Positions 24,001 through 27,000 of a stretch of 27,915 bases of DNA are shown here, piece after piece. The stretch lies in the IMG/VR virus record IMGVR_UViG_641736226_000038. One strand, given 5' to 3'. Numbering within the stretch: the first letter of the stretch is position 1; every line of letters starts with the position of its first letter. This DNA comes from a virus. Taxonomy: Duplodnaviria > Heunggongvirae > Uroviricota > Caudoviricetes. Made by a program: the position numbers.

Positions 24001-27000
24001 CACGGAATCCGGGGTCATACACCGCATGGCATTCAACAACGCTATGCCAGAAGTTACGCACTTCATGAACTCCAGCCAGCACTAATCCTTCGTAGATGCC
24101 GAGATATACCGCATCAGGCTTGATGTAGTATTTATCTCCACTGTCTACGATATTCCCCGTGTTTACCGGGTTGTTAAGGAATTCTGCAAGTTTCACCGGG
24201 TTATCGATGAGCTTTATTTCCATCACTGCTCCGCAATGATTTTGATGGTTGTGGCAGTAAACGCCGCGCCATTCGACTGAATGGTTAACGTGCTGCCATT
24301 TGTGGCAAGAAAGCCGTCTTTATCCACGCTGAAGAACGTAGCTAACAGGATGTTGTCGGTTGTTGTTGCCGAGTTGCGACTGCTTACTAGCGTGTCAGGA
24401 ACAGAACCGGAGAATGTTAGCTGCATTGACCTGTTGGCGGTTCCGCTGGGCCACGTCCCGACAATCGACAGCTTGAAGAACAAGGTTTTGTTCTCGTTGA
24501 ACACAACCATCTTGTTGTTAACGGTGTCGAAGAATGGTGCCAACGTCCCGGATGACGGCGTAAGCGTTTTCAGCAGGCTAACAAGGTTGGTCGGCGCTGT
24601 CGGGATGGTTACTGATACGCCAGAGTAAACAACCTCTGACTTCTTGCGCGTAGTGGCATACTCCAGAGCATTAATGCGCGTTTCATGGTCTGAAACCTGC
24701 GATTCCAGCGACTGAACTCTGGTATCAAGCGATGCAATATCGCTTTCATTCAAGGCAATCAGTGGGTTTACGTCATGGAGTGGGCTCAACACCAGTCAGA
24801 GCCGCATGTACACGCAATAATCATGGTGAACGAAAGAAGCATTAATGGGCAAGCTGGCAAAATTGTCAGCAAATGGGTAACACTGGCAAACAATGCAATC
24901 CCATCAAATGTTCCTCCCCAGTGGGATCTAGATTTGAAAGGTCAGCAATATTCAGAGCCTACAAAGTGTATAGGTAAACAGATTGATTACATGGCAAAGC
25001 CCGAAACTAAGTTAAATGACTTTAATAGAGAGGCGAGCAAGAGCCTATATGATTGGTCAGATGCCAACGTTTGGGGTTATTCGAATGGCTGGGCGCGGCA
25101 TGAGATAAAAAAAGAAACACTTTCTATCACTGGCTTTCATGCTGTAAGACGCATACTAAAAGCCGTTCAGGCATCAAGGAAAGACAACTACAAAGCTAAG
25201 CGACAGATACAGCGTACATTGAAACGACAAGACATAAATCGATCACCAATCACCCCGTTCCAAGCACCGTTAATTAGCAAACACGATTGGGATTTATCAG
25301 TGATAGCGGTCACCAAAGAGGCAGAGACAGAGCGCAGGGAATTACTATCCTCACAGATAATAAACTCGAACAAAGTACAAACCCACCCACTGTTAAGGAT
25401 GTTAAGAAGAGCACGAGTGAGAGCATCCAGAGCCAAAAGAGAAAGCGGAGGTTATGACCATTACTACTAGTAGTGACAGATCGTGACAAGGCGGTGCAAA
25501 AAACGACCAATAATAAGAGAGATATGCCTGCCAAACCGCCAAAAGCGCGGAGCGCGGCAAACGCCGCGAGAGGCGCAAGAAGGCGAACCTATCCATTGAA
25601 ACGGTCAGAAGCGCATCGCGCTCGACGACCGAAGTCCCCACTAACACCGTTAACGAAAGATCAAAGTCTTAGAAAAAAATGACGTTTCTTTGATGGACTT
25701 CCATCCGTAAAAATCAAATTTTGAGAAAAAGTACTTATAGAAATTAATCGCTCTATAAGGATAAGTTGACGTTAGTTTAAAGTGATAAAACATTAAAGAA
25801 AAAACGTAAAATCAAATACATAAAATAAGTCACCAAGGGATCATTTTCAGAAAACAACGTCAACGTAACGTCAACTCTGTAAGAACTTTTTTGGTCACTT
25901 TTTGGGTTGAATGTACGTAAAAATCCCCAGCAGTGAAATTTGAGCGCGTAAGCACAATTCTGAGGGGCTTTTTGTCTGTAGGTTAGGCAGTGTAACTAAC
26001 AATACAAGAAGTTAGCTCTGACTAACTATTTAATTAACTTTTCAATCTAATTGCGTTAGATATTATACCCTAACGCAATATTTTTAATTCAATAATGTCT
26101 GTAAATTGTTATTACTTATAATTATACATTTAACTATATCTACATTGGCTGCTTCCAATTACTACTTACGTAACGGAATCTCGGATCCTCTGTTTTTGGC
26201 TCGGTATAATAAGAATCATCAATAGTAAAGTTCGACGCTAATTTATCCCGAAGCCCACCTAAACGTTCAATGCTTGTTAGTTCGTTAGTAACATCCTTGA
26301 AAACGGTAGAAAATGCTTTATGTTGTTTAGACTTCATAAATTCAGGAGTGCTCAGTGCAAACTCTTTATCAGGCAAACCTGGAATACCCACGAGTCCTGT
26401 CAATGAATTTATACATTTTATCAAAAAACTGCCTTGAATACCTTGATTTGATGGAACACCGTAGCTTCGTTTAATATCTCCAGATATTTTATCTAAATCA
26501 CTTAGTAATTTTGTTACTTTTTTATTTCCTGCACTTATCCCCGATTCATCGTAGGTCACATGAATCTCTCGGATTACATCTCGACACGTACGAAAATGAT
26601 CATGTGTTCTAAGCTCTAAAGCTGAATTGATAACTTGAGAGACATTTCCTGTTTCGTTTGCTAGCCATGCAGAAAATATTGGTAAATCTAATGAAATAGT
26701 AGATGTGCGTCCATGATCTACAATTTCAGATCTTGCAGTACTGATTTTATCAGACAACGATTGCACCAACCTTGCAGTATAATCATGACCAAAAGCACCT
26801 GTTTTTTTCATCCAATGCAATTGATATGCATGCCTTATTGGATGAATAAATGAGTCTGCTTTAAAATGCTTAGCAATGACGCTGTAATAAATAGATTTAT
26901 ATGCCAACCAATTTAGCGATGCGATAAACATTTCAAGTGAACGAGTCATACCTCCTTTACCGCGAGTAGATTTTTCCCTTTCTAGTTCAAATTCACGCTC

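What the first reader, a model, noticed from the sequence alone, without database searches (positions are those of the whole stretch)
24775..25875. Truncated HUH Rep-like ORF, a basic small ORF and iteron-like repeats: remnant of a small rolling-circle replicon
The plus-strand ORF opens with HVHAII and has YMAKP downstream, which fits motifs II and III of rolling-circle initiators, but it lacks an N-terminal region. It is followed by a 69-aa Arg/Lys-rich ORF in another frame. The adjacent AT-rich DNA carries GTTGACGTT and two inverted copies AACGTCAAC about 85 bp away, which could be an origin. This suggests a decayed ssDNA phage, satellite or plasmid integrated next to the P22-like remnant.
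Basis: partly seen in the sequence, partly recalled or inferred. Interest (0 to 1): 0.45.

Follow-up and report, generated by a model that had tools for sequence, protein, structure and literature searches.

The report
Truncated Rep gene of argW island
This stretch of the E. coli O157:H7 chromosome is the broken right-hand half of a small mobile island: its DNA-nicking "Rep" gene lost its first third when it was fused to a neighbouring prophage remnant, so it is a fossil, although it points to a little-studied family of islands and small plasmids that carry variable, partly defence-like cargo.

Summary
ORF 24775-25470 is the C-terminal 231 aa of a 350-aa HUH rolling-circle Rep (97% identical to an intact E. 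coli protein, Pfam PF23343). HVH and YMAK fall on invariant family columns. Motif I and 112 N-terminal residues are missing.

The break is exact, at 24751|24752. There rep codon 112 abuts a 5'-truncated P22/Sf6-type tail-needle gene. 308 complete E. coli genomes carry this junction.

The parent is not an ssDNA phage. It is an 8-11 kb island at tRNA-Arg (argW): attL, P4-type integrase, AlpA, small DNA-binding proteins, Rep, conserved non-coding module, variable cargo, small acidic ORF, serine recombinase, attR.

The 69-aa basic ORF is not a gene. Relatives 93-94% identical break its frame, and it overlies conserved GC hairpins.

The AACGTCAAC/GTTGACGTT repeats are real (3 found, 0.27 expected). 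They belong to a module of about 450 bp that is conserved even in Klebsiella plasmids whose Rep is only 24-29% identical.

An origin role is plausible but unproven. Those plasmids also have ColE1-type origins, so the Rep unit could instead serve transfer (oriT), or the module could serve the recombinase.

In O157 the element is dead. Only the cargo end looks intact.

The parts
24223..24751 (-). Context: the 3' 529 nt of a P22/Sf6-type tail-needle-knob gene, truncated at its 5' end. The apparent ORF runs on to a GTG at 24792, which lies inside rep-derived DNA.
   Evidence: Pfam PF16532 scores 1.7e-117 and starts at ORF residue 15. RefSeq marks the gene as a pseudogene missing its N-terminus. 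The full gene is 849 nt in an O111 prophage. The needle match ends at 24751.
24752..25470 (+). Pseudogene fragment of rep: codon 112 to the stop of a 350-aa HUH rolling-circle Rep. The listed ORF starts at ATG 24775. RefSeq calls a 215-aa 'hypothetical protein' from ATG 24823.
   Evidence: 97% identity over 100% of the ORF to P0001, which is 350 aa and carries PF23343. The DNA alignment to intact genes starts at 24752. Motif I (G80, T86) is absent. The fragment alone gives no Pfam hit.
24805..24813 (+). HUH motif (H-V-H), corresponding to H130 and H132 of the full protein.
   Evidence: These columns are invariant in a 15-sequence family alignment with identities down to 18-26%. They lie on strand 130-137 of the AlphaFold model.
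24988..24999 (+). Y-M-A-K, the catalytic-tyrosine motif (Y191, K194).
   Evidence: These columns are invariant. They lie on helix 185-192, C-terminal to HUH, which is the order seen in Reps.
25473..25682 (+). 69-codon Arg/Lys-rich ORF. A chance ORF, not a gene.
   Evidence: The frame is interrupted in L002 and L003, and three different frames would be needed to read through. There is no Pfam, NCBIfam or PHROG hit. RefSeq does not annotate it.
25537..25631 (.). Two GC-rich hairpins. Hairpin 1 spans 25537-25585, with core CGCGGC-AAAC-GCCGCG. Hairpin 2 spans 25602-25631: CGGTC..AGCGC-ATC-GCGCT..GACCG.
   Evidence: Single-stranded DNA fold gives z = -2.2 in O157, -3.0 in L002 and about -2 in plasmids. 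Hairpin 2 keeps its architecture with different stem sequences in plasmids (TCAA..GGCGC-TCC-GCGCC..TTGA) and in the Klebsiella island (GCGCC-GGA-GGCGC).
25662..25679 (+). Conserved box CAAAGTCTTAGAAAAAAA.
   Evidence: 18/18 identical in plasmids L010 and L011. At most 3 mismatches in every island and plasmid examined.
25731..25762 (.). Inverted pair GTACTTATAGA / TCTATAAGGAT. It contains the 6-mer CTTATA (25734-25739), which is invariant across the family.
   Evidence: CTTATA is invariant in the 8-sequence module alignment. The motif family TCT(A/G)TAAG is mapped.
25765..25773 (.). It is a half-site: TTGACGTT is the reverse complement of AACGTCAA.
   Evidence: TTGACGTTA is exact in plasmids L008, L009, L012 and L013. 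L012 has the palindrome TTGACGTT-AA-AACGTCAA. The motif reads GTTGACGTG in L002 and L003 and is absent from the Klebsiella island.
25856..25875 (+). Tandem AACGTCAAC x2 with an 11-bp period. The conserved core is CAACGTAA(C/G)(G/A)TC.
   Evidence: The Klebsiella island has ACGTCAACGTAACATCAAC. Four of the five plasmid backbones have CAACGTAAGGTC(A/G)A at the collinear position; L012 has a diverged CAATTCAAGGTC there.
25876..25886 (+). TCTGTAAGAAC, the second direct copy of the TCT(A/G)TAAG motif. It lies 124 bp after the copy at 25752.
   Evidence: Two direct copies lie 119 bp apart in all six plasmid records and 124-125 bp apart in the E. coli islands; the Klebsiella island keeps only a degenerate copy.
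25471..25980 (.). The whole non-coding module that is conserved next to rep. The variable cargo begins beyond about 25980.
   Evidence: 93-94% identity to other E. coli islands up to about 25978-26012, after which the sequences are unrelated. 72-78% identity to the Klebsiella island, where cargo lies between rep and the module. Collinear boxes are found in the plasmids.
26140..27552 (-). Cargo gene of 470 aa with unknown function, occupying the island's variable slot.
   Evidence: It matches phrog_13435 (unknown function) at 7.5e-264. There is no PADLOC or Pfam hit. Other islands carry different genes in this slot.
27739..27915 (-). 58-aa acidic ORF that is conserved in the islands. The serine recombinase gene and attR follow, beyond the end of the window.
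   Evidence: 74% identical to the L002 copy and 53% to the Klebsiella copy. It matches phrog_35119. The recombinase and a 1-bp-deleted attR are seen in L001.

Best explanation
WHAT IT IS (shown). Window 24752-25470 holds codons 112-350 of the rep gene of an 8-11 kb integrative island. In other bacteria this island sits at the 3' end of tRNA-Arg (argW).

The intact island has this order: attL, P4-type tyrosine integrase, a 246-251-aa protein, AlpA, a 63-aa protein, a 64-aa HTH protein, a 128-aa protein, the 350-aa HUH Rep, a conserved non-coding module, a variable cargo slot, a small acidic ORF on the opposite strand, a serine recombinase, attR.

In the O157:H7 lineage the left 4 kb is gone: attL, int, alpA, the small regulators and rep codons 1-111, which include motif I. 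The stump is joined, with at most 1 bp of homology, to a 5'-truncated tail-needle gene of a P22/Sf6-like prophage remnant.

The rep fragment is therefore a pseudogene. The '69-aa ORF' is a chance ORF over GC-rich hairpin DNA.

HOW THE INTACT ELEMENT MOST LIKELY WORKS (inferred).
1. Integrase and AlpA excise the island as a circle.
2. Rep uses the HUH metal site and Tyr191 to nick one strand at a site inside the adjacent module.
3. Candidate parts of that site are the GC hairpins, the invariant CTTATA box, and the TTGACGTT/AACGTCAA and TCT(A/G)TAAG repeats, which may act as protein-binding sites.
4. The free 3'-OH then primes rolling-circle synthesis with a host helicase and polymerase.

I favour vegetative replication of the excised circle as the purpose of that synthesis. 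Single-strand transfer is the main rival.

IN O157 (follows from the anatomy). None of this can run. There is no integrase of the island's own, no attL and no motif I, and attR carries a 1-bp deletion. Only the cargo gene, the acidic ORF and the recombinase gene remain as open reading frames.
For: Identity of the ORF:
- 100% DNA identity to O157:H7 chromosomes.
- P0001 is 97% identical over the whole ORF and 350 aa long.
- PF23343 scores 29.7 bits against a cut-off of 27.8.
- E121, P129, H130, H132, Y191 and K194 are invariant, and motif I (G80, T86) is nearly invariant, in 15 sequences with identities down to 18%.
- The AlphaFold core has pLDDT 75-95.
- Foldseek against viral models finds ORF2/G2P-domain proteins and microvirus Reps.

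The junction:
- The break is exact, at 24751|24752.
- 308 genomes carry it.

Architecture and limits of the island:
- The 23-bp att repeat TTCGATTCCTGCAGGGGACACCA lies at both ends in E. coli and Klebsiella. E. albertii shows attR and Citrobacter shows attL, because those contigs are cut.

Conservation of the module:
- It is recognisable in plasmids whose Rep is only 24-29% identical.
- The hairpins show fold z-scores of -2 to -3 and changes on both sides of the stems.

Replication rather than nothing:
- The islands contain no ColE1-like or other recognisable origin.
- The order of HUH before Tyr, and the structural neighbours, are those of Reps and not of relaxases.

The small ORF: it is rejected.
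Against: No experiment shows excision, nicking or replication for any member of the family.

All six plasmid-type relatives examined (L008-L011, L013 and L015) also carry a ColE1-type origin. The evidence is sub-threshold RNAI hits of 30-40 bits against a cut-off of 47, plus about 70% identity of that region to more than 5000 small enterobacterial plasmids. There, Rep is not needed as the replicon, and the Rep unit occupies the place that a MOB module usually holds.

The position of the module relative to rep is not fixed:
- Cargo lies between rep and the module in the Klebsiella island.
- The module lies upstream of the rep operon and just after the resolvase gene in L015.

The AT-rich repeat segment shows no fold signal (z about 0).

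The tandem repeat also scores as a weak terminator-like hairpin on the minus strand.

Of the three Rep relatives scanned, only the closest (P0001) passes the Pfam cut-off, and only narrowly; P0010 and P0007 fall just below it.
Confidence: 0.7

Rival explanations
1. The HUH protein is a Rep-type relaxase and the conserved module is an oriT. On this reading the intact island is an integrative mobilisable element, and the plasmids are mobilisable ColE1-type plasmids with an unrecognised MOB module. The O157 stump would then be a dead mobilisation gene rather than a dead replication gene.
For: The plasmids carrying the unit have their own ColE1-type origin, so Rep is dispensable for their replication. 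The unit (small DNA-binding protein, 126-aa protein, HUH nuclease, adjacent conserved non-coding DNA) sits where mobilisation modules sit in such plasmids. MOB-suite types them 'non-mobilizable', meaning no known relaxase is found. There is a weak Pfam Relaxase (PF03432) hit at E = 0.005. Rep-class proteins acting as relaxases are known (the MOBT family; from my own knowledge).
Confidence: 0.25
2. The repeats and boxes in 25660-25980 are not a Rep target. They could be recombination sites (res-like) for the serine recombinase that always accompanies the unit. Alternatively they could be operators or terminators for the flanking genes, bound by the small HTH proteins.
For: The serine recombinase co-occurs with the module in every island and plasmid examined. 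In L015 the motifs lie directly after the resolvase gene. ACTTATAGAAAT-TAAT-CGCTCTATAAGG is a 28-bp imperfect palindrome. The two direct TCT(A/G)TAAG copies keep a spacing of 119-125 bp, which is similar to the size of Tn3-type res sites (the res geometry is from my own knowledge). L012 has a perfect palindrome TTGACGTT-AA-AACGTCAA, typical of a site for a dimeric HTH protein. The tandem repeat scores as a terminator-like hairpin on the minus strand.
Against: In the plasmids the CTTATA and TATAAG arms are about 50 bp apart, so the 28-bp geometry is not conserved. In most members res would be expected next to the recombinase promoter, but an acidic ORF and the cargo lie in between. The promoter and terminator scans do not exceed the shuffled controls.
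Confidence: 0.2
3. One reading: the stump is what remains of an integrated ssDNA phage (Inoviridae or Microviridae).
For: PF23343 is named after the ORF2/G2P replication proteins of ssDNA phages. The Foldseek neighbours include microvirus replication initiators.
Against: Six intact copies in four genera contain no coat, assembly (Zot-like) or capsid genes. tblastn of the full Rep against 50,697 phage records gives no match. The element has a P4-type integrase, AlpA, a serine recombinase and att sites at argW.
Confidence: 0.03
4. The truncated Rep (231 or 215 aa) or the 69-aa basic ORF is still expressed and has been put to a new use in O157:H7.
For: Both ORFs are intact in more than 300 O157 genomes. 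RefSeq annotates the 215-aa ORF as a protein.
Against: O157:H7 is a recent clone and the locus is 100% identical among strains, so intactness says nothing about selection. The fragment lacks strand 81-87 (motif I) and helix 95-111 of the folded core, as well as its native promoter. The frame of the 69-aa ORF is not kept in close relatives. Other E. coli lineages carry different rep truncations, fused to a Rad52-family gene or to the integrase gene, which indicates recurrent decay.
Confidence: 0.03

Closest known systems
HUH rolling-circle Rep proteins of the ORF2/G2P type (Pfam PF23343; replication proteins of filamentous and other ssDNA phages)
   Same: The three motifs come in Rep order: motif I (xTLT), then HUH, then Y-x-x-K. 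There is a single catalytic tyrosine on a helix after the HUH strand. There is no helicase domain. The intact relative passes the Pfam cut-off. The fold matches Rep nucleases.
   Different: The family is very small and distant: only 21 proteins at E <= 0.001 among 1.84 billion representatives. It is found in integrase-bearing islands and ColE1-type plasmids, not in phage genomes. It has a basic C-terminal domain of about 150 aa with no known family. The O157 copy lacks motif I.
Integrating rolling-circle plasmids of actinomycetes (pSAM2-type AICEs; from my own knowledge, not tested here)
   Same: One small element combines a tRNA-targeting tyrosine integrase with an excisionase-like protein and an HUH Rep, so that the excised circle could replicate by rolling circle.
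   Different: There is no sequence relationship and no FtsK-like transfer gene. The host is enterobacterial. This element has a variable cargo slot and a serine recombinase.
Phage satellites with an int-AlpA module and cargo hotspots (P4-like elements, PICIs). In SaPIs the origin lies just 3' of rep, as iterons flanking an AT-rich stretch (from my own knowledge; the surveys are PMC8628076 and PMC10085698).
   Same: P4-type integrase plus AlpA in the same orientation; a size of about 8-11 kb; tRNA att sites; a replication-type gene followed by repeat-bearing AT-rich DNA; a variable slot holding defence-like genes.
   Different: The replication protein is an HUH nickase, not a primase-helicase. 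No capsid-remodelling, packaging or helper-interference genes were recognised. No helper phage is known. Induction is untested.
Double-strand origin of pMV158-type rolling-circle plasmids: a nick hairpin plus 11-bp direct repeats as the Rep-binding locus (from my own knowledge; the RepB-DDR structure 8amu appears)
   Different: The sequences are unrelated. The region lies downstream of rep, not upstream. There are two repeats, not three. The nick site is unknown.
Small ColE1-type Klebsiella and Enterobacter plasmids: NZ_CP103581.1, NZ_AP022186.1, NZ_CP073059.1, CP124881.1, NZ_CP141860.1 and pEC4365
   Same: They share a syntenic unit: a 68-aa HTH protein (43-44% identity), a 126-aa protein (39-46%), Rep (24-28%), the collinear non-coding boxes, a small acidic ORF and a serine recombinase (29-45%).
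   Different: They are free circles of 5.3-6.3 kb (15.7 kb in pEC4365, which carries Tn4401) with a ColE1-like RNAI/RNAII origin, and they have no tyrosine integrase or AlpA. The islands have no ColE1-like DNA.

Membership tests
HUH endonuclease superfamily, Rep class (PF23343 REP_ORF2-G2P) | A Pfam profile match above the gathering score | tested here: inconclusive
   The window ORF alone gives no Pfam family at E <= 1. Its full-length relative P0001 (97% identical) scores 29.7 bits against a cut-off of 27.8. The Klebsiella relatives score 26.7-27.3 bits, just below the cut-off.
HUH endonuclease superfamily, Rep class (PF23343 REP_ORF2-G2P) | Motif II (His-hydrophobic-His) on a beta strand | tested here: met
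   HVH at 24805-24813 corresponds to the invariant columns H130 and H132 and lies on strand 130-137 of the model.
HUH endonuclease superfamily, Rep class (PF23343 REP_ORF2-G2P) | Motif III: a catalytic Tyr (Y-x-x-K) on a helix C-terminal to HUH | tested here: met
   YMAK at 24988-24999 corresponds to the invariant columns Y191 and K194 and lies on helix 185-192.
HUH endonuclease superfamily, Rep class (PF23343 REP_ORF2-G2P) | Motif I (uuTu) and a complete alpha/beta core | tested here: not met
   In the window copy, residues 1-112 are deleted. These include G80, T86, strand 81-87 and helix 95-111. The feature is met in the intact relatives.
HUH endonuclease superfamily, Rep class (PF23343 REP_ORF2-G2P) | An HUH-nuclease fold | tested here: met
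HUH endonuclease superfamily, Rep class (PF23343 REP_ORF2-G2P) | Site-specific nicking and joining of DNA at a cognate origin | not testable with these tools
   This needs purified protein and DNA substrates.
Integrated ssDNA phage (Inoviridae or Microviridae) | Coat and morphogenesis genes next to rep within the element | tested here: not met
   None are found in six intact copies. No phage record encodes a relative of this Rep.
Autonomous small rolling-circle plasmid | Rep is the element's replication initiator and no other origin is present | tested here: not met
   This was tested on the plasmid relatives. All six examined also carry a ColE1-type origin segment. For the islands, no other origin was found, but replication itself has not been tested.
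tRNA-integrated genomic island (P4-type integrase) | A tyrosine integrase next to a tRNA gene, with a direct repeat of the tRNA 3' end at the far end | tested here: met
   This is met in intact copies. The integrase carries Arm-DNA-bind_3, Phage_int_M and Phage_integrase domains. The 23-bp repeat lies at both ends. In O157 the island's integrase and attL are gone, and attR has a 1-bp deletion and lies outside the window.
Phage satellite (PICI or P4-like) | Genes that hijack a helper phage (packaging or capsid redirection), and induction by a helper | not tested
   Neither Pfam nor PHROGs recognises such genes. Several island proteins have no family. Induction cannot be tested with these tools.
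Integrative mobilisable element / MOB relaxase | A relaxase-family match, with Tyr N-terminal to the His motif | tested here: not met
   PF03432 scores 17.5 bits, below the 24.6 cut-off. The tyrosine is C-terminal to HUH. This lowers the claim 'it is a MOB relaxase' but not the claim 'it works as one'.

The most novel reading that the evidence does not exclude
The Rep stump may be the footprint of an undescribed modular unit. The unit consists of a small HTH protein, a winged-helix-like protein of about 127 aa, a divergent HUH Rep, a conserved cis-acting module of about 300-450 bp, a cargo slot, an acidic small protein and a serine recombinase.

This unit has joined two different backbones in Enterobacteriaceae: a P4-type int/AlpA module at argW, and ColE1-type plasmids.

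On the most novel reading, it is a dedicated platform for carrying and exchanging defence-type cargo. Its HUH protein would drive a conditional round of rolling-circle synthesis, for example on phage infection or on entry of a conjugative plasmid. That would make it a new kind of satellite or hitchhiker.

I found no paper describing it in six literature searches, of which two returned nothing and four returned no paper on this family.
Probability: 0.3. Interest if true: 0.55.

Novelty: new member of a known kind. Interest (0 to 1): 0.3.

Why it matters
For O157:H7 itself this is housekeeping. A 'hypothetical protein' at the argW locus can be re-annotated as the 3' fragment of a rep pseudogene. 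The unannotated 69-codon ORF can be dismissed. The locus can be read as three layers of decay: a K-12-like intS gene, a P22-like remnant and an island remnant.

The wider value lies in the intact relatives.
- They form a rare HUH Rep family, with 21 hits among 1.84 billion representative proteins.
- The family links argW islands of Escherichia, Klebsiella and Citrobacter with small Klebsiella and Enterobacter plasmids that are currently untyped and labelled 'non-mobilizable'. One of these carries blaKPC-2.
- The slot next to the module holds different genes in each member, some of them defence-like.

If the Rep unit turns out to be a mobilisation or conditional-replication module, it would explain how such plasmids and islands spread. 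It would also add a relaxase or Rep type to plasmid-typing schemes.

Tried and rejected
1. The window ORF alone against Pfam and NCBIfam gave no meaningful hit. The identification came only through the full-length relative.

2. NCBIfam has no model for the family. A PDB sequence search with the family profile gave only E of about 1, including a geminivirus Rep.

3. 69-aa ORF as a gene: rejected on frame-breaking indels.

4. ssDNA-prophage idea: rejected.

5. 'The plasmids prove Rep is a replicon'. I first inferred this from 5-kb untyped plasmids whose only replication-like gene is the Rep homologue. I withdrew it after finding their ColE1-type origin.

6. The 128-aa partner protein as a discriminator between replication and mobilisation:
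- Only close homologues were found.
- The model has pLDDT 72.
- This is not decisive.

7. Promoter and terminator scans of 25400-26200 gave no excess over shuffles.

8. Rfam finds nothing in 24600-26300.

9. The ssDNA fold of the AT-rich repeat part gives z of about 0.

10. PADLOC finds nothing for the 470-aa O157 cargo protein.

11. Microhomology at the deletion junction: at most 1 bp.

12. Literature searches for the element, for PF23343 and for pEC4365 found nothing specific.

13. A scan of one genome per species found only two more loci. That is too few for a covariation test of the hairpins.

14. The resemblance of the invariant CTTATA box to the pC194/phiX-type nick sequence CTTGATA is recalled from memory. 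It is a lead, not a test.

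
Full report
**1. Where the window comes from**

The 2.1 kb around the finding is 100% identical to many E. coli O157:H7 chromosomes, including TR01 and EDL933. In RefSeq strain TR01 the local gene order is as follows:
- a lambdoid prophage;
- tRNA-Arg (argW);
- intS;
- three P22-type DNA-ejection genes;
- a 'tail needle knob protein' pseudogene that lacks its N-terminus;
- a 215-aa 'hypothetical protein', which is the finding;
- a 470-aa hypothetical protein on the other strand;
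- a 58-aa ORF;
- a serine recombinase;
- a DUF4942 fragment and the csc sucrose genes.

**2. Checking the observation**

- The ORF runs 24775-25470 and encodes 231 aa, starting MEWAQHQSEPHVHAII, with IDYMAKPETK further on.
- The 69-codon ORF with a GTG start lies at 25473-25682. It has 22 Arg+Lys and 5 Asp+Glu.
- GTTGACGTT lies at 25765-25773. AACGTCAAC lies at 25856 and 25867. That is 3 matches against 0.27 expected, and none of 100 shuffles reached 3.
- GC falls to 0.29 at 25700-25899.

**3. The ORF is the 3' two-thirds of a Rep gene**

On its own the ORF matches no Pfam or NCBIfam family. It matches only a PHROG of unknown function.

A protein search found P0001, a 350-aa protein that is 97% identical over the whole ORF and carries PF23343 (REP_ORF2-G2P). 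It also found Klebsiella relatives at 55% identity and 324-347 aa. Other E. coli genomes annotate the full gene as 'rolling circle replication-associated protein'.

P0001 scores 29.7 bits against PF23343, whose cut-off is 27.8.

A full-library phmmer search found only 21 proteins at E <= 0.001 among 1.84 billion representatives.

In an alignment of 15 of these, with identities down to 18%:
- E121, P129, H130, H132, W153, Q177, Y191, K194 and W225 are invariant;
- G80 and T86 (motif I, xTLT) are nearly invariant.

So HVH and YMAK in the window sit exactly on the catalytic columns.

- the Helitron transposase, RepB of pMV158, TnpA-REP, AAV Rep and circovirus Reps.

Foldseek against viral models finds ORF2/G2P-domain proteins, a 'gene A' protein and microvirus replication initiators.

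The tyrosine lies C-terminal to HUH on a helix. That is the Rep order, not the relaxase order.

**4. The truncation**

DNA homology to intact rep genes begins at 24752. A 123-bp query across the junction splits cleanly: positions 1-62 match needle genes and positions 63-123 match rep genes. 308 of 5426 complete genomes carry the joined form.

The junction reads needle ...GCTTTCATTC | AAGGCAATCAG... rep. It falls inside rep codon 112 and shows at most 1 bp of homology.

What is missing from the Rep fragment: residues 1-112, which include motif I, strand 81-87 and helix 95-111 of the folded core.

What is missing from the needle gene: it is 849 nt in an O111 prophage, and only its 3' 529 nt remain here. 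The apparent start of the needle ORF, GTG at 24792, lies in antisense rep DNA.

Other E. coli lineages carry different truncations of the same gene. In one, a Rad52-family N-terminus is joined at Rep residue 211. In another, the island's own integrase N-terminus is joined at residue 257. Decay of this gene is therefore recurrent.

**5. The parent element**

Intact copies lie at the same chromosomal site, yfdC-argW, in four genera:
- E. coli (L002 and L003);
- Klebsiella (L004-L007);
- E. albertii (L019);
- Citrobacter (L020).

The gene order is:
- argW;
- a tyrosine integrase (Arm-DNA-bind_3, Phage_int_M and Phage_integrase domains);
- a 246-251-aa protein with no family;
- AlpA;
- a 63-aa protein;
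- a 64-aa HTH_17-like protein;
- a 128-aa protein;
- Rep;
- non-coding DNA;
- variable genes;
- a 57-64-aa acidic ORF on the opposite strand;
- a serine recombinase (Resolvase and HTH_7 domains).

The last 23 bp of argW, TTCGATTCCTGCAGGGGACACCA, recur just after the recombinase gene. This gives islands of 8.1-11.1 kb. In O157 this attR has a 1-bp deletion and lies about 1.1 kb beyond the end of the window.

No copy holds phage structural genes, and no phage record encodes a relative of this Rep. The ssDNA-phage option is therefore rejected.

**6. The 69-aa ORF**

E. coli islands that are 93-94% identical carry 1-, 2-, 7- and 8-bp indels inside it. Stop-to-stop frames there are 29-64 codons long and switch frame.

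The same DNA folds as two GC hairpins, at 25537-25585 and 25602-25631. The single-stranded DNA fold z-score is -2.2 in O157, -3.0 in L002 and about -2 in plasmids.

The second hairpin keeps its shape with different stem sequences:
- AGCGC/GCGCT in O157;
- GGCGC/GCGCC in plasmids;
- GCGCC/GGCGC in the Klebsiella island.

The Arg/Lys richness is a by-product of GCG-rich DNA. This ORF is not a gene.

**7. The repeats belong to a conserved module**

Identity to other E. coli islands continues past rep to about 25978-26012 and then stops, where unrelated cargo begins.

In the Klebsiella island the Rep is only 55% identical in protein and 67% in DNA. Even so, window 25650-25745 and 25857-25938 match at 78% and 72%. 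There the module lies after the cargo, not directly after rep.

tblastn of the Rep against plasmids found 16 Klebsiella and Enterobacter plasmids at 24-29% identity. Several of these plasmids, 5.3-6.3 kb long, share a syntenic unit:
- a 68-aa HTH protein (43-44% identity);
- a 126-aa protein (39-46%);
- Rep;
- non-coding DNA;
- an acidic small ORF;
- a serine recombinase (up to 45%).

Their non-coding DNA contains the same boxes in the same order:
- CAAAGTCYTAGAAAAAAA (25662 in the window; 18/18 identical in two plasmids);
- an invariant CTTATA (25734);
- TTGACGTTA (25766);
- CAACGTAA(C/G)GTC (25861);
- TCT(A/G)TAAG (25752 and 25876).

The two direct TCT(A/G)TAAG copies lie 119 bp apart in all six plasmid records and 124-125 bp apart in the E. 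coli islands.

Three qualifications apply:
- They are only part of the picture.
- The upstream inverted copy is absent from the Klebsiella island.
- In one plasmid the two half-sites form a tight palindrome, TTGACGTT-AA-AACGTCAA.

**8. What the module does is not settled**

At first I took the small plasmids as evidence that Rep plus the module is a replicon. That inference fails.

The plasmids share a second conserved non-coding region. It gives sub-threshold RNAI hits of 30-40 bits against a cut-off of 47. It is also about 70% identical over 350 bp to more than 5000 small enterobacterial plasmids. A further relative, on a circular 4.5-kb contig, has the same region.

These plasmids therefore replicate, or can replicate, from a ColE1-type origin. 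The Rep unit on them is an accessory, placed where MOB modules usually sit.

The islands have no ColE1-like DNA. For them, Rep is the only candidate replication function.

Three readings remain:

(a) Rolling-circle origin for the excised island. I favour this on three grounds: the Rep-type motif order, the viral and plasmid Rep structural neighbours, and the GC hairpins combined with repeats of 11-bp period. That last feature is reminiscent of the split nick and bind loci of pMV158-type origins (from my own knowledge).

(b) oriT for a Rep-type relaxase. The Pfam Relaxase hit is below threshold at 17.5 bits.

(c) Sites for the serine recombinase or for the small HTH proteins.

**9. State of the O157 copy**

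The following are missing or damaged:
- the island's own integrase and attL;
- AlpA and the small regulators;
- the first third of Rep;
- attR, which carries a 1-bp deletion.

The element can neither excise nor nick. The cargo gene (470 aa), the acidic ORF and the recombinase gene remain open.

**10. Novelty**

The protein kind, an HUH Rep, is well known, and NCBI already names intact copies 'rolling circle replication-associated protein'. The particular family is rare and, as far as my searches show, undescribed.

I rate the finding as a new member of a known kind. It is of modest interest in itself. There is a moderately interesting possibility that the shared unit is an unrecognised replication or mobilisation platform carrying variable cargo.

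Noticed in passing
window 26140-27552; L002 13477-16931; L003 13385-15865; L004 11327-12766: The slot between the conserved module (or rep) and the acidic ORF holds unrelated genes in each island. O157 has a 470-aa protein with no family apart from phrog_13435. L003 has an 825-aa SIR2/ThsA-like protein (PADLOC 3.9e-12). L004 has an HNH nuclease like PDC-M68A (8.6e-34) plus two small ORFs. L002 has two unknown proteins of 820 and 329 aa. This looks like a defence-cargo hotspot.
   Followed up: partly
window 27739-27915; L004 13249-13443; L009 3921-4118; L010 3297-3509; L008 4568-4885: Every island and plasmid has a very acidic ORF of 57-105 aa, rich in E, D and L, on the strand opposite rep and next to the module. 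The island and plasmid versions are not detectably homologous, but they share position and character. A DNA-mimic or anti-defence role is conceivable but untested.
   Followed up: partly
L008-L011 and L015 (for example L010 1221-1777): Small Klebsiella plasmids that PLSDB/MOB-suite leaves without a replicon type and labels 'non-mobilizable' contain a ColE1-like origin. The evidence is RNAI hits of 30-40 bits, below Rfam's cut-off of 47, and about 70% identity to more than 5000 small enterobacterial plasmids.
   Followed up: yes
L013 (pEC4365, NC_032098.1) 4778-4984 and 14981-15668 continuing into 1-233: In this 15.7-kb KPC-2 plasmid, Tn4401 is inserted after codon 66 of the Rep homologue. The catalytic domain, with motifs I-III, stays in an open frame that has an in-frame Met inside the transposon end. 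The same plasmid is recorded in E. cloacae and K. pneumoniae.
   Followed up: partly
L012 (NZ_CP141860.1): This 12,132-bp plasmid record is a head-to-tail dimer of a 6,066-bp unit. Every gene appears twice at an offset of 6,066 bp. It is either a real multimer or an assembly artefact.
   Followed up: no
L001 about 24681-24702 (about 1.1 kb beyond the end of the window): The island's attR survives in O157 with a 1-bp deletion (TTCGATTCCTGCA-GGGACACCA), just after the serine recombinase gene.
   Followed up: yes
window about 20375-24751 (L001 16076-20460): The K-12-type intS gene next to argW abuts, tail to tail, the DNA-ejection genes of the P22-like remnant. An intact P22-like prophage (L014) has its acyltransferase, tailspike and immI-region genes on that flank of the ejection genes and no integrase there. 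A simple prophage layout would not give the O157 arrangement, so the locus has suffered at least two deletions or rearrangements besides the one that cut rep.
   Followed up: no
P0006 and P0011 (other E. coli genomes): There are chimeric ORFs in which a Rad52-family N-terminus, or the island integrase N-terminus, is fused in frame to the Rep C-terminus at residues 211 and 257. These are independent deletions that removed the 5' part of rep in other lineages.
   Followed up: partly
L018 (NZ_CP145150.1, 108.6 kb) 5803-6678: A 291-aa distant Rep relative (about 27% identity) sits in Klebsiella plasmids of about 110 kb, among recombination and exonuclease genes of the kind found in phages. It lacks the HTH, 126-aa and resolvase partners.
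   Followed up: no
L004 versus L002 (islands): The Klebsiella and E. coli islands are 92% identical in DNA across int to the 128-aa gene, and 94.5% identical across the recombinase end. Across rep they are only 67% identical. The rep segment has therefore been exchanged or has diverged much faster than its flanks.
   Followed up: no
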